Below, one piece after another: positions 29,875 to 47,824 of a stretch of DNA of 64,000 nucleotides. The position numbers were made by a program, and so were the translations under genes. The notes under the pieces are model-generated. The model was not told the origin of the DNA. It did no database searches and saw only the letters and a program-made list of their open reading frames with translations. Each line of letters begins with the position of its first letter. The first letter of the stretch is position 1. Source of the stretch: Anaerolineae bacterium (GTDB lineage Bacteria > Chloroflexota > Anaerolineae > UBA1429); the NCBI GenBank assembly GCA_963675785.1, contig OY776562.1:1792001-1856000 (forward strand), given 5' to 3'.

Positions 29875-29875
29875 T

Positions 29876-34304: not shown

Positions 34305-34318
34305 TAGTCAACTTGCAT

Positions 34319-34353
34319 TAAAAAGGGGCTCGCGGTTTGGCGAGCCCCTTTTT
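34319..34353. terminator. Intrinsic terminator
   Basis: AAAAAAGGGGCTCGC-ggtttg-GCGAGCCCCTTTT. Confidence 0.85.
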
Positions 34354-34451
34354 AATCTGGGTCTGATCCCCTTGCATTGTTTCTGCACCTGTGCCAAAAA
34401 GGGATCATGCAGGTTTGTCGCTTATTCTGTAGCGTAAACTGGAGACACAAC

Positions 34452-35222: not shown

Positions 35223-35274
35223 TATCATCCCACCTTCAATCTGCCCTGATCACTGAACAAGTTCTTCTTGTATA

Positions 35275-35318
35275 CAAAAGCACTCCATCAGCAGAATTCT
35301 GCTGACGGAGTGCTTTTG
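35275..35318 (+). terminator. Strong intrinsic terminator insulating the archaellum locus
   Basis: CAAAAGCACTCCaTCAGCAG-aatt-CTGCTGAcGGAGTGCTTTTG. Confidence 0.85.
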
Positions 35319-35369
35319 TCTCTCGCTAGCCCTTACTCTTTCAATATCATTCGCAACGAGAATGGAGAG

Positions 35370-35640
35370 CAATTTTAGTACTGTTTACAGTTTTTATATT
35401 CTTATTTTATGTTTTTAATATCTTAAAATCACTTTATTCAAGTAAAAATACTAGTAAGATCATTCTGCAATTTTTATGTTAACTAATTATGTTAATAAAA
35501 TATCAATTTATGTTTAACTAGGATATTATGTCTAATAAATAATCATATCTATTTAACTATCGGTCTAAAATATTAGTAGATGTTAAGATAATTTTTACAT
35601 CTAGATATACTATTTTATTACTCTATTTAACGCGCAGTTT
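35370..35640 (+). promoter_or_regulatory. Very AT-rich upstream control region of the archaellum operon with TTATGT direct repeats
   Basis: Lines 35401-35460 and 35461-35520 each contain only 10 G+C in 60 nt; TTATGT at 35407, 35474, 35487, 35508 and 35526. Confidence 0.55.
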
Positions 35641-35847
35641 ATGCCCACTACCTGCATATAGCAGTATAAAAGAAGGGTATCCAGTGCACTTATCGCTCTG
35701 GAATTACAGGATTACCGAGTCTAGCTGATGTGTTCATCTCGCCAACACGATCACCCTTGACATCAGATAGACCAGGAGGAGGAGTGGTACGGAATGTACA
35801 AACAGTGGTGTCACAAAGCTTTTTCCAGAAGAGGAAAGGAACAGAAC

Positions 35848-36411
35848 ATGAACCGTCATTTGGAGTGTCGTAGAGACGACCGTGGTTTTACCGCACTGGA
35901 AACCGCCATTATTTTGATGGCTTTTGTGGTGGTCGCCTCGGTATTCGCTTTTACCATGCTATCGTCTGGCATGAGCTCTACTGAGCAGAGCAAGCAAGCT
36001 ATTGCAGCAGGTATGGAAGAAGTTTCCGGCAGTATGGAATTGCGCGGTAGCGTGATTGCAGCAGGCAGCGAAGATGCCGTAACTTCCGTCACTTTTTGCG
36101 TAGCTAATGCCGCAGGTGGAGACCCCATCGATCTTACGACCGGTGAGAACAACGTACTGGTTATCGACTATCGCACCACCGCAACCCGTACAGCCGACGT
36201 GGCCTGGACAGTAGCATGGCAGGGCAATAACGATGGCGATAGCCTTCTCGAAGATCGCGAACTGGCTGAGATCACCGTAGCCGTTCCTGCAGGATCCACA
36301 CTGAGCGCGAACACCGAGTTTGTGCTCGAAGTCCGACCTGAAAAAGGCGGCGTATTGGAAATTGAGCGAACCACTCCTGCCAAGATTGATGCAGTGATGG
36401 ACCTCGGGTAA
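35848..36411 (+). CDS. arlB: Archaellin (archaeal-type flagellin) ArlB/FlaB; alternative start at 35794
   Basis: Class III signal peptide RRDDRG|FTALETAIILMAFVVVASVFAF, the canonical archaellin N-terminus with E+5; C-terminal DGDSLLEDRELAEI and FVLEVRPEKG..IERTTP archaellin motifs. Confidence 0.95.
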   Translation: MNRHLECRRDDRGFTALETAIILMAFVVVASVFAFTMLSSGMSSTEQSKQAIAAGMEEVSGSMELRGSVIAAGSEDAVTSVTFCVANAAGGDPIDLTTGENNVLVIDYRTTATRTADVAWTVAWQGNNDGDSLLEDRELAEITVAVPAGSTLSANTEFVLEVRPEKGGVLEIERTTPAKIDAVMDLG

Positions 36412-36476
36412 TTCGTCCACTCCTCCCTATGTCTCCGCCATTTGTGGCGAGTGGTGGGACACAGAGTTCACTCCTT

Positions 36477-36516
36477 GGTTTGAGCGGTTCACCTCCTTCG
36501 GTGGGCCGCTCAAACC
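36477..36516 (+). other. Strong intergenic hairpin between arlB and the next gene, no U tract
   Basis: GGTTTGAGCGG-TTCACC-tccttc-GGTGGG-CCGCTCAAACC, 17-bp stem including two G-U pairs. Confidence 0.75.
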
Positions 36517-36535
36517 GCACCAAAAGGAAATCAAA

Positions 36536-37228
36536 ATGGCTGATCTCGAACAGCGCGTAAAACGTCTTGAAGGCGAACTTAGAATCCTGAAGAACCAAAT
36601 CCAGATGACTTTGCTGGATATTCAGGCTGAGTTGGCCGCCCATTATTATCCCGAATTGCGAACAGAGTTGGAGAGCATTCCCCAGGCTCCAAGAGCTGTT
36701 TCCGGGACGAAAGCCATAGATTCTAGAGCCAAGTCACAAGCCGCTTCTACACCATACGAAAATAACGATACACAAGAGCCCGATGATGCTGAACCAATAC
36801 TCTTGAAAAAAGTGTCTCTTGATCAAATCCATCAACAGCCTCCCAGACCACATGCTTCGCTCAAAGATGATCCGGATGAGCTGGAAATCGTTGATCAAAT
36901 GGTCGCTGTGGCCTATCCCGATCTGGATGATGCCGAACCTTTGCTGACAGAACGTGAGAACAATCTGTGCGCAGAGCCTCTCAATAATCCGATTATTCAA
37001 GCCAGTGTAATACGTTGGACTGGTGACACAGTCACTGTTCTTGGTAAAGAGCAAACGCGCAAGATCATTGAGCTTTGTATTCTGGATGGAAGAATAGATA
37101 AAAAATGGGCAGAGCGATTAAAGCGATTGCTTGATCTTGGCGCAGAGTACGAACCCGAAGAAACACCTTCATTTGATGCAGTACTCAATGCCATGGTTGA
37201 ACTGGTCGAGATTCTGGACGCCCACTAG
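36536..37228 (+). CDS. ArlC/D/E (FlaD/E)-like archaellum accessory protein
   Basis: N-terminal coiled coil LEQRVKRLEGELRILKNQIQ, acidic linker, C-terminal IRW..V..LG..QT..IIE....DGRI...A..L pattern resembling the FlaD/E domain; position between arlB and arlG. Confidence 0.6.
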   Translation: MADLEQRVKRLEGELRILKNQIQMTLLDIQAELAAHYYPELRTELESIPQAPRAVSGTKAIDSRAKSQAASTPYENNDTQEPDDAEPILLKKVSLDQIHQQPPRPHASLKDDPDELEIVDQMVAVAYPDLDDAEPLLTERENNLCAEPLNNPIIQASVIRWTGDTVTVLGKEQTRKIIELCILDGRIDKKWAERLKRLLDLGAEYEPEETPSFDAVLNAMVELVEILDAH

Positions 37229-37245
37229 AACAGCGGAGGCTATCG

Positions 37246-37758
37246 TTGGACCACCCTATTATTACGTCTCTCATGATCGTCGTAGCTGTGATTTGTGCAA
37301 TGCTTGTGTTCCAGGCAGTGTATCCTTCGGTGGTCCGCGGCTCCGATTCGGTAGTCTCGATGGAAAGACAGCTTTCTGAACGCCTCAAGACTGAAATAGC
37401 CATCATTCATGCTGCCTCAGAGCTTGATCCTGACGGCAATTGGCAAGATGTCAACCTGGATGGCGATTTTTCCAGCTTTATATGGGTCAAGAACCTTGGC
37501 GAAATTACCTTGAGCTCTGTTGAAAGCTGCGATGTTTTTTACGGTCCTGAAGGCAATTGGGCACGAGTTCCTTTTGAGGACGAAGCTGAAGGCGCTTATC
37601 CCTATTGGACATGGGAGCTGGAAAACGCCGAAACCTGGCAGCCAACGGCCACACTCAAGATAACCATTCATGATCTGTCGGTACCCGAATCGGGGCGGTA
37701 TCTTGCCAAAGTCACTACGCAAAATGGCATATCTGACGAGCTCTTGTTTGGGATGTAG
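37246..37758 (+). CDS. arlG: Archaellum stator protein ArlG/FlaG
   Basis: N-terminal TM, LSERLKTEIAIIHA, FIWVKNLG, DVFYG, WQPTATLKITI, KVTTQNG; TTG start with GGAGG RBS. Confidence 0.85.
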   Translation: MDHPIITSLMIVVAVICAMLVFQAVYPSVVRGSDSVVSMERQLSERLKTEIAIIHAASELDPDGNWQDVNLDGDFSSFIWVKNLGEITLSSVESCDVFYGPEGNWARVPFEDEAEGAYPYWTWELENAETWQPTATLKITIHDLSVPESGRYLAKVTTQNGISDELLFGM

Positions 37759-37760
37759 CC

Positions 37761-38282
37761 ATGGAAACGATTATCAGCTCGCTGATCATTCTTATGCTGG
37801 TGGTCTTTTCAGTGAGTAGTTATTCCAGCGCGATCGTAGAAAGCCAGCAACTCAATGCTGATGGCTGGCAAGCAGCACAAGCACGTGCAGCCGAGCAGAA
37901 TTCAACCAGCATCACCTTTGCGGGCCAAGATGCAGGAACAGATTACATTGACGCGACTCTGCTGAACGATGGTGATACTAGCCTGGCTAACATGGACGAG
38001 TGGGACATATTCATCTCGGCATATAACCAGGCAGGATCTCTTGTTGTGACGTGGCTGCCATATGAGCAAGCCGACACTTTGGGAAATTGGTGGCAAGATT
38101 CAGGGATATACATGGACGCCGCAGGAGGCAGTCCTGAAGTTTATGAACCAAAAGTATTCAATCCCGGTGAAGAGCTGGTCATACGCATTTGGTTGCCTGG
38201 CGGTTTGCAATCTGATTCAGCAGTAATGCTCAACATCGTAACCGACAGCGGGGCCCAGGCCCGCACTATATTCACACAGTAG
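37761..38282 (+). CDS. arlF: Archaellum stator protein ArlF/FlaF
   Basis: N-terminal TM, TLLNDGDTSL, WDIFI, FNPGEELVI, IVTDSG; follows arlG. Confidence 0.8.
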   Translation: METIISSLIILMLVVFSVSSYSSAIVESQQLNADGWQAAQARAAEQNSTSITFAGQDAGTDYIDATLLNDGDTSLANMDEWDIFISAYNQAGSLVVTWLPYEQADTLGNWWQDSGIYMDAAGGSPEVYEPKVFNPGEELVIRIWLPGGLQSDSAVMLNIVTDSGAQARTIFTQ

Positions 38283-38289
38283 GGTAAAA

Positions 38290-38664
38290 ATGAAACAGAA
38301 TCATCCTTGCATTGTGCTTGTGGATGACGACCAGTGCCTGACCAGCATCCTGGAACTGGTTATGGCCAAAGAGGGCTACGACTTGGTCGTCGTTCATGAC
38401 GGCATTAATGGCCTCAAGAAAATCCGCGAATCCCATCCGGATCTGGCTATTCTGGATGCCATGCTGCCCGGACTGGACGGCCGGGATCTCTGCAGAATGC
38501 TGAAAGGTGATCCGAAGACAGCCAACATCCCGCTCATCATGTTCTCTTGTCTCATGGATCTCGATACTGTTGAGAACGATCTGCCAGCGGATGCTTTTAT
38601 CACCAAACCAGCTCCAGTTACACATCTCCTTGAAACGATTCGAGACAGCTTAGCGAGGGTTTGA
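38290..38664 (+). CDS. Single-domain (CheY-like) response regulator
   Basis: LVDDD, ILDAMLPGLDG (phospho-acceptor Asp), IMFS, ITKP. Confidence 0.92.
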   Translation: MKQNHPCIVLVDDDQCLTSILELVMAKEGYDLVVVHDGINGLKKIRESHPDLAILDAMLPGLDGRDLCRMLKGDPKTANIPLIMFSCLMDLDTVENDLPADAFITKPAPVTHLLETIRDSLARV

Positions 38665-38665
38665 C

Positions 38666-39730
38666 GTGCCCGCTCACATTCTGGTTATCGACAGCGATAA
38701 ACAAGCATTGACTGAAAGCATACGCCTGCTCCAGGGCTGTGACTTTGAGGTCACTTCTGCATCGGATTCACAGGTGGGCCTGGCTATGGTATCCACAAGC
38801 GAACCAGATCTGATCATGGTAGATGCGCTGTTGGAAGATCAGGGCTGCGAAGAGATAACACGGATGCTGCGGCTAGACCCAAAGACGCGAGACATTCCCA
38901 TCATTGCCACTATCCCAGCAGAACGCCTCAGCGATCTGATGATCGGCACCGATAGCTATTGGGATGAGTGGCTGCTCAAGCCGTTTACGCGAGAAGATGT
39001 GACTCTCAAGATTGAGCAGCTCATCAAGCCAAGCAGTCATTCGCGCAGAAATGGCGTCGTCTCTACAGGCAGCCACGAGCTGGACAGCAAAATGGGCGGC
39101 GGCATTCCCCTGGGATCCCTTACATTGATCGAAGGAACTTCAGGCGCAGGCAAGTCTGTTTTGGCCCAACAACTCATGTGGGGATCTCTCAAAGGAGGCT
39201 TTCGCCTGTCATCGTTTACTACCGAGAACGGCGTCAAAAGCCTAGTACAGCAAATGCGCAGCCTCAGTCTGGATATCACAGATTTCGTGCTGCTGCGCCG
39301 TCTGCGCATCATCCCCGTTGAAGTATCTGGCTTGGGGAAAAATGCCCCTACTGCCTTACTGGGAGCAATGAGATCTGAAACTGGGACCGACATTATCGTT
39401 GTAGATTCCCTAACGGCGCTTATCAACGGGTGCACCGACCCGCAGGTGCTTGGTTTTTTTGAAGGAGCCAAACGCATCTGTGCAAACGGCACAACAGTCT
39501 TGATCGTTCTGCACTCTTATGGTGTTACACAAGACCTGCTAACACGTCTCAGATCCCTATGTGATGCTCACTTACGCTTGAGCACAGAAGAAATGGGCCA
39601 AAAGCTGGTTCACATGCTCGAAGTAACCAAAGTTCGCGGCGCAGATCGCACCACGGGCAATATCGTCAGCTTTGATGTAGAGCCTGGATGGGGCATGCGC
39701 CTCATTCCTGTTAATAAAGTCAAGGGATAG
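38666..39730 (+). CDS. arlH: Receiver domain-ArlH/FlaH (KaiC/RecA-like ATPase) fusion
   Basis: aa 1-120 REC (VIDSD, IMVD, LLKPF); then STGSHELDSKMGGGIPLGSLTLIEGTSGAGKS (Walker A), FTTE, IIVVDSLT (Walker B), RSLCDAHL, KVRGA, FDVEPGWG. Confidence 0.92.
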   Translation: MPAHILVIDSDKQALTESIRLLQGCDFEVTSASDSQVGLAMVSTSEPDLIMVDALLEDQGCEEITRMLRLDPKTRDIPIIATIPAERLSDLMIGTDSYWDEWLLKPFTREDVTLKIEQLIKPSSHSRRNGVVSTGSHELDSKMGGGIPLGSLTLIEGTSGAGKSVLAQQLMWGSLKGGFRLSSFTTENGVKSLVQQMRSLSLDITDFVLLRRLRIIPVEVSGLGKNAPTALLGAMRSETGTDIIVVDSLTALINGCTDPQVLGFFEGAKRICANGTTVLIVLHSYGVTQDLLTRLRSLCDAHLRLSTEEMGQKLVHMLEVTKVRGADRTTGNIVSFDVEPGWGMRLIPVNKVKG

Positions 39731-39733
39731 TTA

Positions 39734-41413
39734 ATGGCTGGACGCGATTTACCCTTTTTGCATGTTATGACCAATCAAGGCTCACCACTTGTTCAAATCG
39801 CGGGCATGAGCCCGGAGCTTGAAGAGCAAATAGCCCTGCATCCTTTTCTGGGCGACTATTTATCCCAGGTGCCTATAGAGGAGATCGGGGTACCTGAATA
39901 CTATGAGCAGGTTAGTCGTTCTCTGGGGAAAACGTCCTATCACAATTTCATCTACCCCACTGATGATGGATTATTCGTACACATTTATCCGAATCCTCTG
40001 GGAGGACGCGATTATTGGGTTCCTATAGAACCAGACCTGACACTTGATCTGACAGGGGTTACTGAAGATCTGGAAGCGTTATTGGTGGATTATGCCGAAG
40101 ATATTGGCATGGCCGAAGACCCGGATGAAAAGAAAGCCCTGCTTTTGCAGGCTGTTGATGAGATATGCACGCTGAATCCTACCGAAGCTGAATACCGCTT
40201 GTTGGTAACAGAGCGAGAGCTTGAAGGTCTCAAATATCACGTCGTACGTGACAAGATTGGTTTGGGAACTCTGCAACCCCTCATCTCTGACCCATATATT
40301 GAAGATATTAGCTGCAGCGGCATTGGTCCGGTGTTTGTAGAACACAAGGTCTTTAAGAGCCTACAGTCGTCCATTACCTTTGAAACGATGGATGAACTCG
40401 ACGACTTTGTAGTGTGGTTGGGAGAGTGCATCAAACGGCCCGTTACTGTGCGTAACCCCATTGTGGACGCTGTACTGCCAGACGGCTCTCGTATCAATAT
40501 CGTGTATGGACGTGAGATTGCTACACGAGGCAGTAACTTTACCATCAGAAAATTCTCGGATACGCCGATCAGCATTCTGGAATTGATCGACTTTGGCACG
40601 CTCAACTATGACATGGCCGCCTACCTCTCGCTCATTCTGGAGGAAGGTTTGAACATGTTTGTCGTCGGCGCTACGGCCTCTGGCAAAACCACTACGCTCA
40701 ACGCGCTGACCACATTCATTCTGCCTGATGCCAAAGTCGTCACCATCGAAGATACGCCCGAAGTCAAAATCCCACATGGAAACTGGTGCCGAGAAGTTAC
40801 GCGAGCATCGGGCAATGGCGATACAAAAGCCGCTGGCGTCGATATGTTCGAATTGCTCAGAGCAGCCCTACGACAACGCCCCGACCGTATCATCGTCGGC
40901 GAGATCCGTGGCGCAGAAGGGGCAACCGCCTTTCAGGCCATGCAGACTGGCCACGGTGTCATGGCAACCTTTCACGCCTCATCAGTCATCAAACTGGTAC
41001 AGCGTTTGACGGGTAGCCCCATCAATATTCCCAAAACATATATGGATAACCTGCATGTAGCCCTTATTCAGAGCGCAGTGCGAGGACCAGACGGCCGTAT
41101 GGCCAGGCGCGTAACAAGCATCAACGAGATCCTGGGGTACGATCCGGTCTCTGAAAGTTTTTCGTTCATTGAGGTTTTCCGCTGGAACTCGGCCAACGAT
41201 ACATTCGAGTTTCCCGGGAACATGAACAGCTTTTTACTTGAGGATGTCATTGCCCTCAAGCGCGGCTTGCCGCCCAACCGCCGTAAAGAAATCTATGACG
41301 AGATTCGCAAACGAGCGAGGATTTTCAGACGCCTTCACGAAGATAGAGGTATAAGTTCCTTTGACGACTTTTTCCGTGTCCTCTCAGAAGCACACCGACA
41401 AGGTCTCCTCTGA
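39734..41413 (+). CDS. arlI: Archaellum assembly/motor ATPase ArlI/FlaI
   Basis: DPYIEDISCSG, LPDGSRINIVYG, FTIRKF, GATASGKTT (Walker A), IEDTPE, LRQRPDRIIVGEIRG, AFQAMQTGH. Confidence 0.95.
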   Translation: MAGRDLPFLHVMTNQGSPLVQIAGMSPELEEQIALHPFLGDYLSQVPIEEIGVPEYYEQVSRSLGKTSYHNFIYPTDDGLFVHIYPNPLGGRDYWVPIEPDLTLDLTGVTEDLEALLVDYAEDIGMAEDPDEKKALLLQAVDEICTLNPTEAEYRLLVTERELEGLKYHVVRDKIGLGTLQPLISDPYIEDISCSGIGPVFVEHKVFKSLQSSITFETMDELDDFVVWLGECIKRPVTVRNPIVDAVLPDGSRINIVYGREIATRGSNFTIRKFSDTPISILELIDFGTLNYDMAAYLSLILEEGLNMFVVGATASGKTTTLNALTTFILPDAKVVTIEDTPEVKIPHGNWCREVTRASGNGDTKAAGVDMFELLRAALRQRPDRIIVGEIRGAEGATAFQAMQTGHGVMATFHASSVIKLVQRLTGSPINIPKTYMDNLHVALIQSAVRGPDGRMARRVTSINEILGYDPVSESFSFIEVFRWNSANDTFEFPGNMNSFLLEDVIALKRGLPPNRRKEIYDEIRKRARIFRRLHEDRGISSFDDFFRVLSEAHRQGLL

Positions 41414-42887
41414 AGCAGAGGAGATACATGCGGCACAAAACGAGAGCTACTCTGCTTTTCAGTTCTACTACCAGCTGATTTACATGTCGGCTGTCGCAGC
41501 GGCGGGGCTTTCGCGCAACCAGGTGTTTGACCTGGGAGCCAAGCTTAATTGTGTGGTAGCACCCTATTTTGCCGACGTTCAAACCCTGGTAAGTAGTCTG
41601 CATTATGACTACCCACGGGCCTGCCGTGTGGTAGGTGGCCGCTGCAAAGAGACTGACGTTGCCAGTTTTTTGCTGCGCCTTTCCGATGCACTAGAAGCTG
41701 GGGAGAGCCTTCCGGGATTTCTAACTCACGAGGCTGGAGTGCAACGCAATGTTTATGTGAACGAATATGAGCGCAATCTGGATTCGATGCGAAAATGGAC
41801 CGACGCTTATGCATCGCTCATCGTTTCCATGGCGTTGATTGTGATCATCAATCTCGTTTCAACCATGATCTACGATATGGGCAATACTTTGATGATGCTC
41901 TTTGTAGGTACAGCCTGCCTGTTCAGTGCAGGCGGCGCCTGGGTAGTTACCCGTTCAACACCGCGAGAAAGACTAGCTCTTTGTGAAGGCCCCGGCTCGG
42001 AGGAACAGCAACGTATTCGACAAATGGGCACGATCGCACTTCCCATAGCGCTGGTAGGCTCGCTGATACTGGGGTTAATTCATGCTGGATGGGGTTGGGT
42101 AATGATTTTTACAGCATTGGTAACAGCTGTACCCGGCCTATTGGCATGGCAGTCAGAATCCCGCCGCATCCGCAAAGAAAAAGAATTCTCAGCCTTTATG
42201 CGATCGCTGGGAAGCATGGCCAGCTCCACAGGAACCACAGTCTCTGAAGCTCTGACACGCATGGATCTCAACTCGTTTCCAACACTGGCTCCTGACGTGC
42301 TTAGGCTATCGAGTCGTTTGAAGGCACGTATTGCGCCCCAGGTATGCTGGAATCATCTTGTTCAGGAGACAGGAAGCCAGCTCATCAATTATGGTGTGCG
42401 CGTATTTGTCGATGCGGTGATTCTGGGCGGGGACCCAAAAGAAACCAGTACACTCTGTTCGCAATTCATCTCGCAGACAACCATGCTTCGTGAAAAACGT
42501 GCTGCTATTTCTTCTTCGTTTAGCGGTTTGGCCATCATCATGCATGCCATTTTGGCAGTTTTACTGCTGCTCATTTTAAACATCGTGCTCAGTTTCAGAA
42601 GTCTTGTTTCCAGTTACATGGATGAGAATCTGTCAGCAGACATGATCAGCTCTATCAACATCCCTTTGATGAGCTTTGACGGCTCTCAGCTTGCTCTGGT
42701 ATCCACACTGACCATCGGAATGACGCTTTTTCTGGTGTTTGTCGATGCAGGTGCGCTTATTGGGACGGATGGCGGATTCAAGCCCAAAGCACTCGCCTAC
42801 TATGCTGTGGTCGCTGCATTAACAGGTATATGTTTCTTTGTTATTCCGCCAATGATTCAGTCCGTCATGTTGCAGGCAATTGCCTAG
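41361..42887 (+). CDS. arlJ: Archaellum membrane platform protein ArlJ/FlaJ; start uncertain
   Basis: Two T2SS-F-like repeats: YQLIYMSAV..LLRLSDALEAGE..W.DAY.SL and FSAFMRSLG..L..R...I..CW....ETGS.LI..GGDP; multiple TM segments; follows arlI. Confidence 0.92.
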   Translation: MTTFSVSSQKHTDKVSSEAEEIHAAQNESYSAFQFYYQLIYMSAVAAAGLSRNQVFDLGAKLNCVVAPYFADVQTLVSSLHYDYPRACRVVGGRCKETDVASFLLRLSDALEAGESLPGFLTHEAGVQRNVYVNEYERNLDSMRKWTDAYASLIVSMALIVIINLVSTMIYDMGNTLMMLFVGTACLFSAGGAWVVTRSTPRERLALCEGPGSEEQQRIRQMGTIALPIALVGSLILGLIHAGWGWVMIFTALVTAVPGLLAWQSESRRIRKEKEFSAFMRSLGSMASSTGTTVSEALTRMDLNSFPTLAPDVLRLSSRLKARIAPQVCWNHLVQETGSQLINYGVRVFVDAVILGGDPKETSTLCSQFISQTTMLREKRAAISSSFSGLAIIMHAILAVLLLLILNIVLSFRSLVSSYMDENLSADMISSINIPLMSFDGSQLALVSTLTIGMTLFLVFVDAGALIGTDGGFKPKALAYYAVVAALTGICFFVIPPMIQSVMLQAIA

Positions 42888-42895
42888 GGGGCACA

Positions 42896-44014
42896 ATGAT
42901 CATTCAGTCTCTCAAAAAGCAATGGTTCATCATACTGCTCGGCTTGATCCTTACACTGATTCCAACACGTATCGCGTTGGGGCAGACACCCAATCACGAA
43001 TCAGCACTAGTAAGTGGTGATACACTTGAAGTGCTTACAGATGTGGTACAGGCTTATCAGACCGACGGTGATTTGCTTGAGGCCATGCGTTCGCTGGATA
43101 CCTGGGACACGGATGTGCTCCTTGTAGCCATTGGAGCACTTGAAAATGACGAGTCTGATGCCAAGCTTGCCGAAACAGCAGCCACTCTGCATAAAGAGCT
43201 TTTGCTTCCGGACGATACAATCCAGATTGGCGATCTCTTGAAAAAAACACCAATCACTCTGGTTCTGGCTCTATCTATTGGGCTCCTTGCCGTCGGAAGC
43301 ATACTGCTCATGCTGCCACAAAAGGTCGTATCACATGCGGTATTACATGCTGATGCCTTTACTCAGAGGGTCAGCGAAGCCAGAACCGATCTTAAGACTG
43401 CTGCCAACAATCCTCAAAATGACTCTGAAGATAACCTCGATGACCTAATCGGCAGCATTGCAGAGATAGGCGAAAGCGTAGATAATGACAAAGGTTTGCT
43501 CTCTGAAACGGCCAGTGGTTCAATCAAACCTGAAAGCGAGAACCAAGAACCCACTGAAAATGAGGCCGACGAAAGCAGCTCCCGTGCTGTAACCACTGTC
43601 AAGCTTGATGCTGAGCAAGCCCCACACGTTGTCCAAGCGGACAAAGTGGGTAAGACGGAACAGACCAGTGAGATCAAGCCCTCGGCGACGCCGGAAACTG
43701 TGCCCGCGACTCCATCTCAACAGCTCCAGAGCCAGGATTCGGGGGCAGCCGACGCTGCTGCAAGTGCAGGGAGCAGCCAACAGGGGATCGCTAGCAGTAC
43801 AAGTGCACCCGAAGTAGCTCCCCAGGAGCCTTCTGCAAAAGACAATGTTGCAGCGTTGCTCGAGGACGTATTCTCGGATGATGAACAAGGGTCAGAAGAT
43901 CTCAAGATACTCGATGAAGGATTGGAAGACATCGAGATGACCCAGATGATCAAGACTATGCTCGAACTTAGCCGGCGACTAAGAGAACTCAACAGAGCAG
44001 AGCAATCTGTTTGA
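42896..44014 (+). CDS. Membrane protein with long acidic disordered region and helical C-terminus (ArlX-like accessory candidate)
   Basis: Signal-like N-terminus, second hydrophobic segment near aa 120-140, Ser/Glu/Ala-rich linker, C-terminal LLEDVFSDDE..LKILDEGLEDIEM..L.EL..RL helix; 8 bp after arlJ. Confidence 0.6.
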   Translation: MIIQSLKKQWFIILLGLILTLIPTRIALGQTPNHESALVSGDTLEVLTDVVQAYQTDGDLLEAMRSLDTWDTDVLLVAIGALENDESDAKLAETAATLHKELLLPDDTIQIGDLLKKTPITLVLALSIGLLAVGSILLMLPQKVVSHAVLHADAFTQRVSEARTDLKTAANNPQNDSEDNLDDLIGSIAEIGESVDNDKGLLSETASGSIKPESENQEPTENEADESSSRAVTTVKLDAEQAPHVVQADKVGKTEQTSEIKPSATPETVPATPSQQLQSQDSGAADAAASAGSSQQGIASSTSAPEVAPQEPSAKDNVAALLEDVFSDDEQGSEDLKILDEGLEDIEMTQMIKTMLELSRRLRELNRAEQSV

Positions 44015-44024
44015 TAGGAGCCAC

Positions 44025-45611
44025 ATGCCAGCCAGAAGTGGTAGCGGCCAACCCCAGATTAAGAATTCACCCACGCGATCGAAAAAAGAGCGCGCGGGTC
44101 TCTTGTTGATTCTGGCCGGGCTTGTTGTGCTGGCATTGCCGTTCTACCTTGTTTACAATACATTATCGGGGCGTGAACAAGAAGCAGCCATAGAGATTGA
44201 GACACTGGCAACAGCTTTGAACGCTACTGCCACACCCGATTCGCAAATAGAAACCCTTGAGGCTCAGCTGGAAGTTGCACAAGCAAATCGTGATGCTCTC
44301 ATTACAATTACCAATGAGCTGAATGCGCAAACGGATGCCTGGCCGGAAATTCTGAACGCCCTGGCCAATTATGATGCGACGCAGCTGCGCCTTGAGGAAA
44401 TCAGTCAATCCGAATCGCAAATCGTTCTACAGGGCTCTGCCGTAAATGATCAAGTTGTTATGGACTATACCCAGAACCTGCAAGACTCGTCTTGTTTTGA
44501 GCGTGTGGTCATACAATCGATACAGGTTGTAGAAAAAGCTTTCGTCCAAGAAGCTGCCTCGACGGCTACACCGGCAGTAGTTAACAGATCTACCGCAACA
44601 AGTACACCCGTGGCCACAACCACAACCACCGCCACTGTCCTCCCTGAGGGCGATGCCTACGAGCAAGATGATACGACGCCTAATGATATTTATCCCGATA
44701 AAGCCCAAGAGCATACGTTTTATCCACCTTATGACGTCGACCTTGTGCAATTCCTGGCAAAATCAGGACGTTATTACCGCGTCTATACAACCGATCTGGA
44801 ACCCGGCGTAGATACCAGTCTCACCATTACGCTGGGAGATCAGATTTATGTCAATGATGACCGCAGCAACGGAGATCTGAGCTCAGAGCTCGTCATTGCT
44901 GTCCCAGCGGGTACGGATGTGGAAGCGCTCGTCCAGATAACGAACAGAGGACAGTACGGGACTACCCAAAGCTATGTCATCGTCGTCGAAGAGATTTTGG
45001 CGAGCACCAGCACGCCCACACCAGAGACGACAGCGACACCGCAGGCCACAGCCACTCCGGCCAGCGCTGCCACAGCGCGACCAACTTATGGACTCGAAGA
45101 TGTGTATGAGCCAGATGATTATGATGCCGCTGAATTGGTCGTTGGGCAATCACAAATTCGCACTTTTTCACCGGAAAAAGACATCGATCAGGTTGTATTC
45201 CAGGCGCTTCCCTCTCACCGTTATGAGATAGCAACATCCTGGTTATATCCGGATGTAGATACCAGCCTGGTTGTATATGTTGGTGAAGTAGCATACACAA
45301 ACGACGACTGCAGCAATGGGGAAGCTAGATCCTGCATCACCATAGATATACCGGCAGGAGAAACCACTCTTGTTACAGTAAAAGTCACCAACAACGGCAC
45401 ATTTGGCCCTGGGCAGCTTTACACACTGGGTGTGACAGATATGGGCATCTATAACACATCGATGAACAATCGCGAAGCACGCAAGTCCGATGTCGAGCAA
45501 GTGCACTTTGTGCAAACAGCTACATCCGCGTCGCACAAGCTCAAACCAGCCAGTGAAACCACCACGTCAGTGCAATTCTCCATTTTGCTCATTATTGAGG
45601 AATCCGAGTGA
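44025..45611 (+). CDS. PilN-like protein with two inserted PPC-like beta-sandwich repeats
   Basis: TM, coiled coil, WPEILNAL..LRLEEISQ..IVLQGSA..V..Y...L..S..FERVVIQSI (PilN core); repeats starting DAYEQDD and DVYEPDD, both containing VDTSL..NDD. Confidence 0.75.
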   Translation: MPARSGSGQPQIKNSPTRSKKERAGLLLILAGLVVLALPFYLVYNTLSGREQEAAIEIETLATALNATATPDSQIETLEAQLEVAQANRDALITITNELNAQTDAWPEILNALANYDATQLRLEEISQSESQIVLQGSAVNDQVVMDYTQNLQDSSCFERVVIQSIQVVEKAFVQEAASTATPAVVNRSTATSTPVATTTTTATVLPEGDAYEQDDTTPNDIYPDKAQEHTFYPPYDVDLVQFLAKSGRYYRVYTTDLEPGVDTSLTITLGDQIYVNDDRSNGDLSSELVIAVPAGTDVEALVQITNRGQYGTTQSYVIVVEEILASTSTPTPETTATPQATATPASAATARPTYGLEDVYEPDDYDAAELVVGQSQIRTFSPEKDIDQVVFQALPSHRYEIATSWLYPDVDTSLVVYVGEVAYTNDDCSNGEARSCITIDIPAGETTLVTVKVTNNGTFGPGQLYTLGVTDMGIYNTSMNNREARKSDVEQVHFVQTATSASHKLKPASETTTSVQFSILLIIEESE

Positions 45612-46519
45612 AGCGCAAGAAACGCTGGATAGACACCATTCCGTGGGCCAATATACGCTACAGTCTGCCCACCATGGCCATAGCCTTGTTGGCTATGGGC
45701 TATCTTATAGCTGCCATGATGATTCTTTTGCCGCAATGGCAATCAGTCAATAGTTTGATTGCGGAGATCAATCAGGATCGCGATGAACTCTTGAGCATTC
45801 GCCGTAATGCGCTCGAGTTGCCGGGCAAATTGGATGACGAAATCTCTGCAGCCAAGGCACAACTGGATACATTGCGCCAAAGCCTGATGGACCGAGACAC
45901 CGCTGCTGCTCTTCTCGACCAGCTTTATGTGATCTCTTTGGGGAACGATGCTCAAATCGTTGATCTGCAAAGCCAGCCATCGCCTGAAGTAAATAAAGAA
46001 GCCATGTATGACATCAGCAGTTTCAAGGTCAATGTACAGGGCAACGTCAAAGACATTCTGGCGTTCTTGAGGCAAGTTGAGGCTATCAGTGCTGGCACCG
46101 CGACACAGATCGGCGAATTTGAAATAGCCTCTACGGATGAAACCGATCTATCGCTGCTCTCATTTACCATGACGCTCTATACACGCACCGATCAGACAGA
46201 GATGACACCTTTGGTATCAAATGTATCAGAAGATACCGAACAGGATACGGAAGACACAGAGCTTTTGGAGAAACCAGAGGATTGGCCATCCGATTGGTCC
46301 TGGCCACCCAGCTCTCCGCTTTTGGATGACCAAACCGAGACAACGTCGATAGCAATCCCTCAAAGCTATATCAGCCACACCATCGCTGAGGGAGAGACCT
46401 TGTTGGGTATCGCCCTACAATACGGCGTATCTGCCGAGGTGATTTCACAACTGAACGGGCTCGACGTCCGTGCATTTGTCATTGGGGATACCCTACAGAT
46501 CCCTGTCTACGCCCAATAG
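45608..46519 (+). CDS. PilO/GspM-like protein with C-terminal LysM domain
   Basis: TM plus LPQW, coiled coil, FKVNVQGNVKDILAFLRQVE (PilO-like), C-terminal HTIAEGETLLGIALQYGVS..I.QLNGL....IGDTLQIP LysM; GTGA overlap with the upstream gene. Confidence 0.8.
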   Translation: MKRKKRWIDTIPWANIRYSLPTMAIALLAMGYLIAAMMILLPQWQSVNSLIAEINQDRDELLSIRRNALELPGKLDDEISAAKAQLDTLRQSLMDRDTAAALLDQLYVISLGNDAQIVDLQSQPSPEVNKEAMYDISSFKVNVQGNVKDILAFLRQVEAISAGTATQIGEFEIASTDETDLSLLSFTMTLYTRTDQTEMTPLVSNVSEDTEQDTEDTELLEKPEDWPSDWSWPPSSPLLDDQTETTSIAIPQSYISHTIAEGETLLGIALQYGVSAEVISQLNGLDVRAFVIGDTLQIPVYAQ

Positions 46520-46639
46520 ACCTCAGCATTACTTGCCCACTCTCACCCTCTATATAGCACTTGCTCACAGTTGCCTTTTCGTGCATAGTGCTGATGTTAT
46601 GCTTTACGGTCCCATATGTACGAATATTTGGAGGATGAT

Positions 46640-47824
46640 ATGAAAAACTTTGATTTCATTTCGCCAACCAGGATTATTTTCGGTAAGGGCGTTGAAAAGC
46701 AGACCGGCGAGATCACAGCCCAATATACTGATAAAGTGTTGCTCGTGTATGGCGGCGGCTCTGTGAAAAAGTACGGCCTGTATGACACAGTTGTAAATGG
46801 GTTGAATAAAGCGGGCGTCGAGTATTTCGAATTAGCCGGTGTCGAACCTAATCCGCGCCTCTCTCTAGTCCATAAGGGTATCGATATCTGCCGCAAAGAA
46901 GGTATCGGCTTTATTCTGGCCGTTGGTGGAGGCAGCGTTATCGATACATCCAAAGCCATTGCTGCAGGCGTACTGTATGATGGTGATGTGTGGGACTTTT
47001 TCATCCCTCGGCAGATCATGCCCAAGGCGCTTCCAGTTGGTGTCGTGCTGACCATTCCCGCTGCTGGTAGTGAAGCCAGTGATAGTGTAGTGATCACCAA
47101 GGTAGACGAGGACGGTTGGCGCAAGATGGGTTCGGGTGGAGATGCCGTACGACCGGTGTTCGCCATCATGAACCCCGAACTCACTTATACGCTACCACCC
47201 TACCAGACAGCAGCCGGAGCCACAGACATGTTCCTCCATGTGCTCGAACGATATTTCACCAACCCCAAGAATGTTGAATTGACCGATCGTCTGTGCGAGT
47301 CAATCATGAAGACCGTCGTCAACAATGCGGGCAAGGTCCTGGCCAATCCCACCGATTACGACGCTCGGGCCGAAATCATGTGGTGCGGCACACTAGCCCA
47401 CAACGGCCTAGTAGGTACCGGCCGCGAGCCAGATTTCGCTTCTCATGGGATCGAACATGAACTCTCGGCGCTGTACGATGTGACTCATGGTGCAGGATTG
47501 GCAGTTATTTGCCCGGCCTGGATGAAGTACGTGTACAAACACGACATTCCACGTTTCGCTCAATTTGCCAACAGGGTTTTTGACATTGAAATCGACCCAT
47601 TTGACCTAGAAACTACGGCCCTCAAAGGCATTGCAGCGTTTGAGGGTTGGCTGCGCTCTATCGGGATGCCCACTACTGCCGAAGAGCTGGGCGTTGACGA
47701 ATCCAAATTTGAATACATGGCCTCTTGTGCAACTGCGAACGATACTCGCAAAGTGGGGAATTTCGTCCCTCTTGATAAGAATGGTGTGTTCTCCATATTT
47801 ATGTTAACGCGTGCCAACGGGTAA
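46640..47824 (+). CDS. Iron-containing alcohol dehydrogenase (NADH-dependent butanol dehydrogenase-like)
   Basis: PTRIIFGKG, GVEPNPR, GGGSVIDTSKAIA, TIPAAGSE, HGIEHELSALYDVTHGAGLA; ATG 46640 with GGAGG RBS. Confidence 0.93.
   Translation: MKNFDFISPTRIIFGKGVEKQTGEITAQYTDKVLLVYGGGSVKKYGLYDTVVNGLNKAGVEYFELAGVEPNPRLSLVHKGIDICRKEGIGFILAVGGGSVIDTSKAIAAGVLYDGDVWDFFIPRQIMPKALPVGVVLTIPAAGSEASDSVVITKVDEDGWRKMGSGGDAVRPVFAIMNPELTYTLPPYQTAAGATDMFLHVLERYFTNPKNVELTDRLCESIMKTVVNNAGKVLANPTDYDARAEIMWCGTLAHNGLVGTGREPDFASHGIEHELSALYDVTHGAGLAVICPAWMKYVYKHDIPRFAQFANRVFDIEIDPFDLETTALKGIAAFEGWLRSIGMPTTAEELGVDESKFEYMASCATANDTRKVGNFVPLDKNGVFSIFMLTRANG

What the first reader, a model, noticed from the sequence alone, without database searches (positions are those of the whole stretch)
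35848..46519. Complete archaellum (archaeal-type flagellum) operon in a bacterial chromosome, extended by bacterial PilN/PilO-like genes
Seen: eleven co-directional, tightly packed genes: arlB, arlCDE-like, arlG, arlF, CheY-like, REC-arlH, arlI, arlJ, an ArlX-like membrane protein, a PilN-like and a PilO-LysM gene. They sit in a window whose core genes (tig, clpP, clpX) and TTGACA/TATAAT promoters are bacterial. Known: ArlB/F/G/H/I/J are the conserved core of the rotary archaellum, a type IV filament superfamily motor long regarded as archaeal. Archaellum clusters have been reported in some Chloroflexota, so the cross-domain occurrence alone is not unprecedented. Inference: an intact, apparently domesticated (no integrase or IS nearby) hybrid machine in which an archaeal motor has been re-fitted with bacterial envelope-anchoring and two-component-signalling parts.
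Basis: partly seen in the sequence, partly recalled or inferred. Interest (0 to 1): 0.95.

Follow-up and report, generated by a model that had tools for sequence, protein, structure and literature searches.

The report
Archaellum operon in a Chloroflexota bacterium
This bacterial chromosome carries a complete, intact copy of the archaeal swimming motor (archaellum) with added bacterial cell-wall-anchoring and signal-receiver parts, a kind of locus already published for this phylum in 2025-2026, so this is a further example whose receiver-fused motor protein is the one part not yet discussed in print.

Summary
Eleven co-directional, tightly packed + strand genes (35794-46519) encode ArlB, a divergent ArlC/D/E-type protein, ArlG, ArlF, a CheY-like receiver, REC-ArlH, ArlI, ArlJ, a conserved unnamed membrane protein, PilN and PilO-LysM. 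They sit in a closed 3.22 Mb bacterial genome, with tig/clpP/clpX 8 kb downstream.

ArlI passes the NCBIfam archaellum-ATPase equivalog cut-off. In my tree it nests with 8 other Chloroflexota ArlI inside euryarchaeal arl2-type archaella, apart from archaeal pilus ATPases and the genome's own Tad-like ATPase. Contigs from two other studies bridge both junctions, so it is not a mis-assembly.

The kind is already in print: Nat Microbiol 2025 (functional archaellum in Litorilinea aerophila, cheY, pilN, pilO-LysM) and Front Microbiol 2026 (PilN/PilO anchoring model).

Not found in the main texts I searched:
- The REC-ArlH fusion. All 120 listed homologues have it; 0 of 23 archaeal ArlH do; it forms one post-transfer clade.
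- The two PPC-like domains on PilN.
- The membrane protein conserved after arlJ.
- The absence of CheW, MCP and Hpt in this genome.

The label 'ArlX-like' is not supported. Verdict: a real, ordinary member of a recently published kind. The REC-ArlH fusion is a testable lead for how signals reach the bacterial archaellum.

The parts
35794..36411 (+). arlB, the archaellin. [quoted passage not shown]
   Evidence: PF01917 at 93.6 bits (cut-off 29.5) and TIGR02537 N-terminal domain at 29 bits (cut-off 20). The motif was read in the translation. A GGAGGAGG Shine-Dalgarno-like run lies before 35794. Identity to the archaellins of L001, L009 and L002 is 57-65%.
36536..37228 (+). Divergent ArlC/D/E-type accessory protein: N-terminal coiled coil, disordered middle, conserved C-terminal domain of about 90 aa.
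   Evidence: It has no Pfam or NCBIfam hit of its own. A single-sequence search found only 2 proteins, itself included. A profile of 8 Chloroflexota homologues (A1) matched a profile of 11 archaeal proteins at the same slot between arlB and arlG (A2): hhalign probability 98.7%, E 4.4e-16, 91 columns. Of the 11 archaeal members, 4 hit PF04659 Arch_fla_DE (best E 2.7e-5) and 3 hit FlaC_arch.
37246..37758 (+). arlG (stator/periplasmic component)
   Evidence: NF052591 ArlG at 28.2 bits, below the cut-off of 110, and PF01917 at 21 bits. BLASTP to archaeal ArlG-position ORFs reached up to 92 bits, E 5e-27 (L061). Identity to Chloroflexota loci is 49-59%.
37761..38282 (+). arlF (stator component). 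The order arlG-arlF marks the arl2 type.
   Evidence: NF052590 ArlF at 20.5 bits, below the cut-off. BLASTP to archaeal ArlF-position ORFs reached up to 56 bits, E 4e-13. The arl2 order is as defined in PMC12488501 (passage read).
38290..38664 (+). CheY-like single-domain response regulator
   Evidence: PF00072 at 63.5 bits. The acidic pocket D13, the phospho-acceptor D56 and K106 are invariant in 6 of 6 locus-encoded homologues (A4). The gene sits between arlF and arlH in L001, L002, L004, L005 and L009.
38666..39730 (+). REC-ArlH: a receiver domain (residues 1-120), a flexible linker (122-128) and a KaiC-like ArlH ATPase (about 130-354).
   Evidence: PF00072 at 33 bits plus NF004723 FlaH at 246.5 bits (cut-off 194). 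By sequence against the PDB, FlaH 4yds scores 98.5 bits on residues 131-350. The AF2 model has mean pLDDT 76.7, with two domains and a low-confidence linker. D9, D11, D53, T82 and K105 are all present.
39734..41413 (+). arlI, the archaellum motor ATPase
   Evidence: NF058587 at 627.1 bits (cut-off 550), against bindosome BasE at 215 bits and TadA at 163 bits. PDB: FlaI 4ii7 at 442 bits, above 2oap at 308 and CpaF at 152. Tree placement.
41361..42887 (+). arlJ, the polytopic membrane platform protein
   Evidence: NF004703 ArlJ/FlaJ at E 8.3e-103, 344.5 bits, covering residues 18-502 (below the equivalog cut-off of 570). PF00482 T2SSF at 37 bits (cut-off 25.2).
42896..44014 (+). Conserved Chloroflexota membrane protein of no known family. 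The ORF is open from 42830. It has two hydrophobic segments, a long P/Q/E-rich stretch and a conserved acidic C-terminal helix.
   Evidence: No Pfam or NCBIfam family. The best Atlas hit scores 0.87, to a 134-member cluster of hypothetical proteins labelled Chloroflexota; this is a lead only. A gene of the same architecture follows arlJ in L001, L002, L003 and L009 (A5). No ArlX hit.
44025..45611 (+). PilN-like protein extended by two beta-sandwich modules (about 215-327 and 367-476) separated by T/P-rich linkers
   Evidence: PF05137 PilN at 31 bits (cut-off 22.8) on residues 110-170. AF2 model: mean pLDDT 60.5, structured domains 70-87. Foldseek: ColG collagen-binding domain 1nqj at TMt 0.82, rmsd 2.3 over 104 columns; tandem CBD 5iku at rank 3. 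The L009 homologue has a weak PPC PF04151 hit, E 0.0013.
45608..46519 (+). PilO-like protein with a C-terminal LysM peptidoglycan-binding domain. Its start overlaps the pilN stop by 4 bp.
   Evidence: PF04350 PilO at 25.4 bits (cut-off 22) and PF01476 LysM at 31.7 bits (cut-off 20.9). Homologues with LysM follow pilN in L001 and L009.

Best explanation
This is a bona fide arl2-type archaellum operon of the Chloroflexota lineage. It descends from a euryarchaeal (Methanotecta-like) archaellum cluster transferred into the phylum.

Inferred from family knowledge, not shown here:
- ArlB is cleaved by a bacterial-type prepilin peptidase encoded elsewhere in the genome.
- ArlI/ArlJ polymerise it into a filament, and ArlI then rotates it by ATP hydrolysis.
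- ArlF/ArlG act as the stator. The ArlC/D/E-type protein and ArlH form the cytoplasmic ring.

Three bacterial-side additions are co-transcribed:
1. PilN (with two PPC-like modules) and PilO-LysM. They most likely form a peptidoglycan-bound cage that guides and anchors the motor through the wall.
2. A Chloroflexota-specific bitopic membrane protein after arlJ.
3. Two receiver domains, one free (CheY-like) and one fused to ArlH.

The genome has no detectable CheW/CheA, MCP or Hpt. The receivers are therefore most likely phosphorylated by ordinary histidine kinases. Phosphorylation of the REC on ArlH would then modulate ArlH oligomerisation or its contact with ArlI. That would switch assembly or rotation on and off directly, without the archaeal CheF adaptor.
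For: Gene content and family scores.

ArlI identity:
- It is over the equivalog cut-off (627.1 against 550).
- The best solved relative is S. acidocaldarius FlaI.
- In a 53-row IQ-TREE tree, the window's ArlI plus 8 Chloroflexota ArlI form a clade (SH-aLRT 97). That clade lies inside a clade (99) of archaeal ArlI that carry ArlH and ArlJ on either side.
- It is separate from 16 archaeal ATPases without ArlH and from the genome's own Tad-like ATPase.

Gene order: B, CDE-type, G, F, H, I, J is the order seen in 10 archaeal loci of the nearest clade.

Synteny: L001 and L009 share all 11 genes.

Assembly:
- The genome is closed and single-contig.
- X5 contigs 34702-37796 and 39419-46839, and X4 contig 35076-36436, come from studies other than the identical holder. 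They bridge the junctions.

Two prepilin peptidases lie elsewhere in the genome.

No FlhA, CheW, MCP or Hpt was found in a genome 94.84% complete.

REC-ArlH:
- All 120 listed homologues of 2118 hits carry PF00072 plus PF06745.
- 0 of 23 archaeal ArlH have an N-terminal extension.
- Fused forms fall in one clade (98) within the Chloroflexota ArlH.
- The window's REC keeps D9, D11, D53, T82 and K105.

In L004 and L005 a REC-PAS-HisKA-HATPase-REC kinase sits inside the arl locus.

A second PilN-domain ORF, with PilM, PilD and a PilT-like ATPase, lies in a separate cluster at about C1:1.898-1.906 Mb. The arl-linked PilN/PilO are therefore an extra, dedicated pair.

Function of a related locus: L. 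aerophila assembles an archaellum and swims (PMC12488501, abstract and passages read).
Against: - No expression or motility data exist for this organism. No RNA run was listed.
- ArlF, ArlG and ArlJ score below NCBIfam equivalog cut-offs.
- In the REC-ArlH family the phospho-acceptor Asp is missing in 28 of 120 members. The conserved Thr/Ser position is Thr in only 10 of 120. Many family members may therefore be phosphorylation-independent pseudo-receivers. The 'phospho-switch' step is inferred.
- No cognate kinase could be assigned. The hybrid kinase 3 kb downstream is only the third-best of many paralogous matches to the locus-embedded kinase of L005.
- The roles of PilN/PilO and g09 rest on gene linkage alone.
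- The nearest sampled relative, G314 (same family), has no ArlH match and no synteny. The history of the locus in this lineage is therefore unresolved.
Confidence: 0.85

Rival explanations
1. The segment is an archaeal contig mis-joined into a bacterial assembly, or contamination.
For: The core genes are of archaeal type. Locus GC (50.3%) is at the 5th percentile of the genome, and an atypical 43% GC region lies just upstream.
Against: The genome is one closed contig of 3,217,757 bp with no N. Contigs from runs of two other studies bridge both junctions at about 99% identity. The locus tetranucleotide distance is at the 92nd percentile, so it is not an outlier. Nine other Chloroflexota assemblies carry related loci, and their ArlI proteins are monophyletic. 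The operon contains bacterial PilN, PilO-LysM and REC genes.
Confidence: 0.01
2. It is a non-rotary type IV filament (a Tad-, Epd- or Aap-like adhesion pilus) that merely resembles an archaellum.
For: ArlI and ArlJ belong to the T2SSE/T2SSF superfamily. ArlF, ArlG and ArlJ are below the equivalog cut-offs.
Against: The ArlI equivalog is passed, with 627 bits against 215 (BasE) and 163 (TadA). The tree separates it from 16 archaeal pilus-type ATPases and from the genome's own Tad-like ATPase. The archaellum-specific ArlH, ArlF/G and ArlC/D/E-type genes are present in arl2 order. A relative of the same clade was shown to swim (PMC12488501).
Confidence: 0.04
3. The locus is intact but silent or on its way to decay: a passenger with no role in this organism.
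For: The distribution is patchy: ArlH was found in 9 of 401 sampled genomes of the phylum and in none of the listed same-class genomes. A decaying example exists: in L010, arlH is split by an IS-like insert and arlI is frameshifted. L. aerophila had itself been described as non-motile (PMC12488501 passage).
Against: All 11 ORFs are open. Walker motifs and receiver residues are conserved. The spacing is tight, operon-like. Near-identical copies occur in runs of at least 3 studies. There is no flagellar export gene, so this would be the only swimming apparatus.
Confidence: 0.1
4. PilN, PilO-LysM and g09 are neighbours that serve another envelope system (a type IV pilus or the polysaccharide genes on both sides), not the archaellum.
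For: PilN/PilO are type IV pilus parts by family. The genome has PilB-, PilT-, PilM- and PilD-like genes. Polysaccharide genes flank the locus. Published qRT-PCR in L. aerophila found low expression of pilN/pilO (PMC12488501 passage).
Against: The gaps are 8-10 bp and the overlap 4 bp, all on the same strand as arlJ. The same three genes follow arlJ in L001 and L009. g09-type genes follow arlJ in L002 and L003, and a PilN-like ORF follows it in L002. The pilus-like cluster elsewhere has its own PilM and PilN-domain genes.
Confidence: 0.15

Closest known systems
Chloroflexota archaellum loci, type example Litorilinea aerophila (Sivabalasarma et al., Nat Microbiol 2025, PMC12488501; anchoring model in Front Microbiol 2026, PMC13319060)
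   Same: An arl2 gene order (arlG before arlF). arlB with a class III signal peptide. An arlCDE-type gene rather than arlX. arlH/I/J. A cheY homologue in the locus. pilN and pilO-LysM nearby. The prepilin peptidase outside the locus. No flagellum. Nested within arl2-type euryarchaea (passages read; my results).
   Different: Here ArlH carries an N-terminal receiver domain, and PilN carries two PPC-like modules. pilN and pilO sit directly downstream in the same operon. No CheW, MCP or Hpt was found. ArlI is 58% identical to that of the Caldilineaceae relative L003, whose ArlH is plain and whose PilO is an 843-aa protein without a LysM hit. I could not see the L. aerophila sequence or the papers' figures and supplements. 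Whether its ArlH is fused is unknown to me.
Euryarchaeal arl2-type archaellum clusters (e.g. Methanosarcinaceae locus L008 and 10 further loci of the nearest clade)
   Same: The order is the same: arlB(s), C/D/E-type, arlG, arlF, arlH, arlI, arlJ. ArlI is 42-49% identical over the full-length tblastn alignments (46% for L008) and 52-58% in the genome search matches, most of which cover only the C-terminal ~400 residues. The C/D/E-type C-terminal domain is homologous.
   Different: None of the 23 archaeal ArlH has a REC domain. At the thresholds used, tblastn with the window's CheY, PilN, PilO-LysM and g09 found no match in the archaeal stretches fetched.
Bacterial type IVa pilus alignment subcomplex PilM-PilN-PilO-PilP-PilQ
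   Same: PilN and PilO domains over the Pfam cut-offs. Bitopic topology with a coiled coil plus a ferredoxin-like core.
   Different: No PilM in the locus (PilM lies elsewhere). PilP and PilQ were not searched for. LysM is fused to PilO, and two PPC-like beta-sandwiches are fused to PilN. The pair is linked to an archaellum motor instead of PilB/PilC.
Archaeal chemotaxis coupling CheA/CheW/MCP to CheY to CheF to ArlCDE
   Same: A CheY-like receiver and an ArlC/D/E-type protein are encoded with the motor.
   Different: No CheW, MCP or Hpt was detected in this genome, and no CheW in four other archaellated Chloroflexota genomes. CheF is reported absent from Chloroflexota (PMC12488501 passage); I did not test this here. 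A second receiver is fused directly to ArlH.

Membership tests
Archaellum (arl2 type) | Archaellin with a class III (prepilin-like) signal peptide | tested here: met
   PF01917 at 93.6 bits against a cut-off of 29.5. TIGR02537 at 29 bits against 20. RG|FTALE motif followed by a hydrophobic helix.
Archaellum (arl2 type) | ArlI-type motor ATPase, distinct from pilus and Tad ATPases | tested here: met
   NF058587 equivalog at 627.1 bits against a cut-off of 550. PDB FlaI at 442 bits, above 2oap at 308 and CpaF at 152. Tree placement within ArlI that have H-I-J context, support 99.
Archaellum (arl2 type) | ArlJ platform protein next to ArlI | tested here: met
   The three best families are ArlJ/FlaJ models: E 8.3e-103, residues 18-502 of 508. 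T2SSF Pfam is over its cut-off. Caveat: 344.5 bits is below the equivalog cut-off of 570.
Archaellum (arl2 type) | KaiC-like ArlH encoded upstream of ArlI | tested here: met
   NF004723 FlaH at 246.5 bits against 194. NF052589 ArlH at 193.4 bits, below 215. PDB FlaH 4yds at 98.5 bits.
Archaellum (arl2 type) | ArlF and ArlG stator pair, in the order arlG-arlF | tested here: met
   The order was read. There is homology to archaeal ORFs at the ArlG and ArlF positions (up to 92 and 56 bits). Caveat: NCBIfam ArlG and ArlF scores are 28 and 20 bits, far below the cut-off of 110.
Archaellum (arl2 type) | ArlC/D/E-type (or ArlX) cytoplasmic accessory protein | tested here: met
   It has no direct family hit. 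The link is transitive. A1 against A2 gives hhalign probability 98.7%. Of the 11 archaeal positional homologues, 4 hit Arch_fla_DE and 3 hit FlaC_arch.
Archaellum (arl2 type) | Filament assembly and ATP-driven rotation (swimming) | not testable with these tools
   This needs culture, EM and motility assays. It has been shown only for L. aerophila (PMC12488501).
Tad pilus / archaeal adhesion pili (Epd, Aap, Ups) | ATPase groups with TadA/CpaF or archaeal pilus ATPases; no ArlH/F/G | tested here: not met
   TadA model at 163 bits against ArlI at 627 bits. The protein is separated from 16 archaeal ATPases without ArlH and from the genome's own Tad-like L012 in the tree. ArlH, ArlF and ArlG are present.
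Type IVa pilus alignment complex | PilN and PilO domains | tested here: met
   PF05137 at 31 bits against 22.8. PF04350 at 25.4 bits against 22.
Type IVa pilus alignment complex | PilM (and PilP/PilQ) encoded with PilN/PilO | tested here: not met
   There is no PilM in the operon. The only PilM match over the cut-off is at C1:1903125, about 67 kb away. PilP and PilQ were not searched for.
Chemotaxis pathway feeding the motor | CheA/CheW scaffold and methyl-accepting receptors in the genome | tested here: not met
   PF01584, PF00015 and PF01627 gave 0 matches in a closed genome 94.84% complete, while the control genomes rang.
Chemotaxis pathway feeding the motor | CheF adaptor | not tested
   Reported absent from Chloroflexota in PMC12488501 (passage). 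I ran no CheF search.
Two-component receiver (REC) domains | Acidic pocket, phospho-acceptor Asp, Thr/Ser, Lys | tested here: met
   g05 has D13, D56, S and K106. The REC of g06 has D9, D11, D53, T82 and K105. Across the REC-ArlH family only 92 of 120 keep the Asp and 10 of 120 the Thr.

The most novel reading that the evidence does not exclude
The REC-ArlH fusion may be the missing signal input of bacterial archaella. After the archaeal cluster entered Chloroflexota, a receiver domain was fused once to the KaiC-like ArlH ring protein. Ordinary histidine kinases could then control assembly or rotation directly at the motor. This would replace the archaeal CheY-CheF-ArlCDE route in lineages that have no CheA, CheW or MCP. 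It would be a new way of wiring a rotary motor to two-component signalling. It would also answer the question left open in the 2025 paper: which component relays signals to the bacterial archaellum.
Probability: 0.35. Interest if true: 0.65.

Novelty: new member of a known kind. Interest (0 to 1): 0.45.

Why it matters
The cross-domain transfer of a whole rotary motor is remarkable. It has, however, been in print since 2025, with structure, swimming and phylogeny, and the PilN/PilO-LysM anchoring idea since 2026. This locus therefore adds an example, not a discovery.

Its value lies in the details:
- It comes from a closed genome, so absences can be trusted more than in MAGs. No flagellum and no chemotaxis core were found.
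- It shows the fullest 'bacterialised' form of the operon: REC-ArlH, CheY, a conserved post-arlJ membrane protein, PilN with wall-spanning modules, and PilO-LysM, in one transcription unit.

The REC-ArlH fusion is widespread in metagenomes and is absent from the archaeal loci sampled. It gives a concrete, mutable target for asking how a bacterium controls an archaeal motor.

Tried and rejected
- **Complex prediction, ArlC/D/E-type protein (A1) with the CheY-like protein (A4).** No answer: score 0.00, mark 0.32. It counts neither for nor against binding.
- **The look-up of sequencing runs.** No RNA holder was listed, so nothing can be said on expression.
- **Synteny with the nearest sampled relative, G314 (same family).** Only the 5'-nucleotidase (57% identity) and a weak SDR match were found in 20 kb. 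It does not tell whether the locus is an insertion.
- **Cognate kinase.** The hybrid kinase at 49633-53211 (-) is only the third-best of many similar matches to the L005 locus-embedded kinase. No assignment is possible.
- **g02 by single-sequence search.** Two hits only, one of them itself. Pfam at E up to 1 gave only noise for g02 homologues and for g09.
- **g09 as 'ArlX-like'.** There is no ArlX hit for g09 or its homologues. The only ArlX trace was E 0.21, in the archaeal L008 C/D/E-type protein. Rejected.
- **Pfam on the two PilN repeats alone.** Nothing found. The fold search gave the PPC/collagen-binding-domain likeness instead. Other high-ranking Foldseek rows (SIDT1, Cry, HA70) are generic tandem beta-sandwich matches with TM below 0.2, and I set them aside.
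- **Promoter scan.** Fewer sites than in shuffles, so it is not used as evidence.
- **The search of earlier findings.** Closed.
- **Supplementary files of the papers.** Closed and not consulted. Fig. 2, the source data, and Supplementary Tables 4-5 of PMC13319060 could show two things: whether this genome is one of the 244 archaellated genomes or one of the 3 with pilO-LysM, and whether ArlH fusions were recorded.
- **'Not in print' for REC-ArlH rests on these searches.**
  - 'receiver', 'fusion' and 'fused': 0 occurrences in the main texts of PMC12488501, its preprint and 10.64898/2026.05.11.724246.
  - 'receiver' alone: 0 in PMC13319060 and PMC13705601. 'fusion' and 'fused' were not searched there, and PMC13319060 does use 'fusion' for PilO-LysM.
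  - Library search 'ArlH' plus 'receiver domain': 4 papers, 2 listed, neither on this topic.
  - Library search 'FlaH' plus 'receiver' plus 'Chloroflexi': 0 papers.

Full report
**1. What is there**

One search lists eleven + strand ORFs from 35794 to 46519. They are almost contiguous. The gaps are 124, 17, 2, 7, 1 and 3 bp, then a 53-bp overlap at arlI/arlJ, then gaps of 8 and 10 bp, then a 4-bp overlap. The g09 start is taken at 42896.

Pfam and NCBIfam give:
- Archaellin ArlB: PF01917, 93.6 bits.
- Two small proteins with weak ArlG/ArlF matches.
- A single-domain receiver.
- A receiver fused to FlaH/ArlH: NF004723, 246.5 bits (cut-off 194).
- ArlI: NF058587, 627.1 bits (cut-off 550).
- ArlJ: E 8e-103, below the equivalog cut-off.
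- PilN.
- PilO plus LysM.
- Two genes (g02 at 36536-37228; g09 at 42896-44014) with no family hit.

The translation of ArlB shows the class III cleavage motif RG|FTALE.

**2. Where it is**

The window is G000:C1:1792001-1856000 of a one-contig genome of 3,217,757 bp, 94.84% complete, with no N. tig, clpP and clpX lie at 54.7-58.0 kb. The nearest ArlI relatives in a species-level genome collection are 9 Chloroflexota assemblies (52-67% identity in the best segment) and one Methanosarcinaceae archaeon.

Composition:
- The locus has 50.3% GC against 53.6% for the genome (5th percentile of 299 windows).
- Its tetranucleotide distance is at the 92nd percentile, which is mildly atypical.
- The 20-35 kb polysaccharide region upstream is strongly atypical (43% GC, 99th percentile).

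Public runs hold the locus. One holder has an identical 69-kb contig, which may be the source. In runs of two other studies, contigs 34702-37796, 39419-46839 (X5) and 35076-36436 (X4) cross from the bacterial flanking genes into the arl genes. Mis-assembly is excluded.

**3. Is it an archaellum?**

By sequence, the best solved relative of ArlI is S. acidocaldarius FlaI (442 bits). The archaeal GspE2-like 2oap scores 308 and CpaF/Tad 152.

I sampled 81 genomes of the phylum of the Methanosarcinaceae hit; 65 had matches. I fetched 39 archaeal ATPase loci and one bacterial Tad-like locus and classed them by context:
- 22 archaeal loci, plus L008, have ArlH and ArlJ on either side of the ATPase.
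- 17 lack a clear ArlH (L053 has only a 47-bit KaiC-like match).

The tree had 53 rows. L010 was left out because its arlI is frameshifted. It puts the window with 8 Chloroflexota ArlI in one clade (SH-aLRT 97). That clade lies inside a clade (99) made up otherwise only of archaeal ArlI with H-I-J context. It is separate from 16 context-less archaeal ATPases and from the genome's own Tad-like, PilT-like and PilB-like ATPases. One context-less row (L040) falls among ArlI.

This matches the published result: Chloroflexota archaella nest in arl2-type Methanotecta (PMC12488501, section 12 read).

**4. The two unnamed genes**

*g02.* It evolves fast; a single-sequence search found only itself and one relative. 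Every Chloroflexota locus nevertheless has a gene at this slot with the same N-terminal coiled coil (A1). Ten archaeal loci of the nearest clade, plus L008, have a 222-342-aa gene at the same slot, in the same overall order B, x, G, F, H, I, J. The profile-profile comparison A1 against A2 gives 98.7% probability over the C-terminal domain. Of the 11 archaeal members, 4 hit Arch_fla_DE and 3 hit FlaC_arch.

*g09.* It has no family. The best Atlas hit is a lead only: 0.87, to a Chloroflexota hypothetical cluster. Genes of the same build follow arlJ in L001, L002, L003 and L009. That build is two hydrophobic segments, a long P/Q/E-rich stretch and a conserved acidic C-terminal helix. 'ArlX-like' is not supported.

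**5. Bacterial additions**

*PilN (g10).* It models as a TM helix, a coiled coil and a PilN core, followed by two beta-sandwich modules on T/P-rich linkers (mean pLDDT 60.5, domains 70-87). The modules resemble the ColG collagen-binding/PPC fold: 1nqj at TMt 0.82, and a weak PPC hit in the L009 homologue.

*PilO (g11).* It carries LysM.

*A second pilus-like set.* The genome has a second PilN-domain ORF with PilM, PilD and a PilT-like ATPase about 42-50 kb beyond the window. The arl-linked pair is therefore extra.

*Already published.* pilN and pilO-LysM next to the archaellum, and the idea that they anchor it in peptidoglycan, are in print (PMC12488501 passages; PMC13319060 abstract and discussion passages). 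The latter reports that 34 of 235 peptidoglycan-encoding archaellated genomes have pilO/pilN, and that only 3 have pilO-LysM near arl.

**6. Signalling parts**

The CheY-like g05 keeps all receiver residues. It sits between arlF and arlH in five other loci.

The ArlH fusion:
- All 120 listed homologues, of 2118 with E <= 1e-10, have REC plus KaiC-ATPase domains and are 333-375 aa long. The 7 that carry an organism name are Chloroflexota, Anaerolineae or Anaerolineales.
- Among my loci, the fusion is present in 5 of 9 assessable Chloroflexota loci (window, L001, L004, L005, L009).
- It is present in 0 of 23 archaeal loci.
- In a 401-genome sample of the phylum, ArlH was found in 9 genomes. Among the 8 other than G000, 6 matches start at ArlH residue 126-130 in frames of 237-258 aa and are plainly unfused. 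G364 (residues 108-353 in a 325-aa frame) and G195 (a 519-aa frame with two internal stops) cover only the ArlH part. G291 is a weak 28% match over residues 5-332 with an internal stop.
- The ArlH-domain tree puts all fused forms, plus the second plain copies of L004 and L005, in one clade (98) inside the Chloroflexota clade. The fusion therefore arose after the transfer.

The AF2 model shows two domains joined by a low-confidence linker.

The window's REC is canonical (D9, D11, D53, T82, K105). In the family as a whole, though, the Asp is lost in 28 of 120 and Thr is kept in only 10 of 120. Phosphorylation-dependence is therefore uncertain.

The genome has no CheW, MCP, Hpt or FlhA match. Four other archaellated Chloroflexota genomes also lack CheW. 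In L004 and L005 a hybrid PAS histidine kinase sits inside the arl locus, and L004 has a CheB-like gene and an HK-REC-Hpt gene upstream. This supports control by two-component kinases rather than by a chemotaxis array. No kinase can be assigned in G000.

**7. Literature and novelty**

The kind of locus has been published since 2025: an archaellum in Chloroflexota, arl2 order, cheY, pilN/pilO-LysM, HGT from euryarchaea, and function in L. aerophila. From PMC12488501 I read the abstract, sections 8 and 12, and passages. For its preprint, PMC13319060, PMC13705601 and 10.64898/2026.05.11.724246 I read passages only.

'Receiver', 'fusion' and 'fused' have no occurrence in the main texts of PMC12488501, its preprint and 10.64898/2026.05.11.724246. 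'Receiver' has none in PMC13319060 or PMC13705601, where 'fusion' and 'fused' were not searched. Two library searches found nothing on a REC-ArlH fusion. Figures and supplements were not visible to me. The 2025 paper explicitly leaves open which component relays signals to the bacterial motor.

I therefore rate the locus as a new member of a known kind. The REC-ArlH fusion, the extended PilN and the post-arlJ membrane protein are undescribed-looking details worth a follow-up.

**8. Verdict**

- Confidence that this is a genuine archaellum operon of the published Chloroflexota lineage: 0.85.
- Interest: 0.45.
- Most novel reading: REC-ArlH as a direct two-component input to the motor, with probability about 0.35.

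Noticed in passing
window 20000-35000 and 47916-49307: A low-GC region (43% against 53.6% for the genome; tetranucleotide distance at the 99th percentile) sits directly upstream of the arl operon. It holds polysaccharide genes on the - strand: a GT4 glycosyltransferase, a Wzy-type ligase/polymerase and an NAD-epimerase/dehydratase. A Wzz chain-length gene lies downstream. This could be an acquired surface-glycan island. Any link to archaellin glycosylation or the envelope layers is untested.
   Followed up: partly
window 49633-53897 (- strand): A 1192-aa hybrid sensor kinase (GAF, several PAS, HisKA, HATPase, REC) is followed by a MEDS-domain protein. It lies 3 kb downstream of the operon and is convergent to it. 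It is a candidate but unassigned kinase for the two receivers.
   Followed up: partly
window 36412-36535: The 124-bp gap after arlB holds a long GC-rich hairpin (about 36478-36517) without a T run. It could be a processing or attenuation site that sets the archaellin-to-accessory-gene ratio. It was read by eye only.
   Followed up: no
window 35370-35640: A strongly AT-rich stretch of about 270 bp lies upstream of arlB, after a hairpin that ends the SDR gene. It is a likely regulatory region. The three sigma-70-like matches there are no evidence, since the region as a whole has fewer matches than shuffles.
   Followed up: no
L010 3331-4547 and 8372-9588; 7907-11637: A Dehalococcoidia MAG carries a decaying archaellum locus. 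arlH is split by an insert that occurs twice in the locus with the same two ORFs (94 and 311 aa, IS-like). arlI is read in two frames, and arlB and the C/D/E-type gene are inverted.
   Followed up: partly
L004 8183-9994; L005 5187-9994: These loci have both a REC-ArlH and a second plain ArlH in tandem. A REC-PAS-HK-REC hybrid kinase and a CheY lie between arlF and arlH. L004 also has a CheB-like gene and an HK-REC-Hpt gene upstream, although no CheW domain was found in G405, the genome of L005 (L004's own genome was not searched).
   Followed up: partly
L003 7912-8619; L005 15043-15897: In these relatives a prepilin peptidase (Peptidase_A24) lies inside or right after the arl locus. In the window's genome the two peptidases lie far away, beside Tad-like and PilT-like ATPases.
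   Followed up: partly
G000:C1:1898587-1906000 (outside the window): A separate type IV pilus-like cluster: a PilN-domain match in a 1057-aa open frame, PilM, a 346-aa prepilin peptidase and a PilT-like ATPase. There is also a Tad-like ATPase with its own peptidase at C1:2.797-2.800 Mb.
   Followed up: no
L001 8543-8923: The CheY-like gene of L001 has no ATG, GTG or TTG in frame before the conserved N-terminal strand. The cause may be an unusual start codon or a sequencing error.
   Followed up: no
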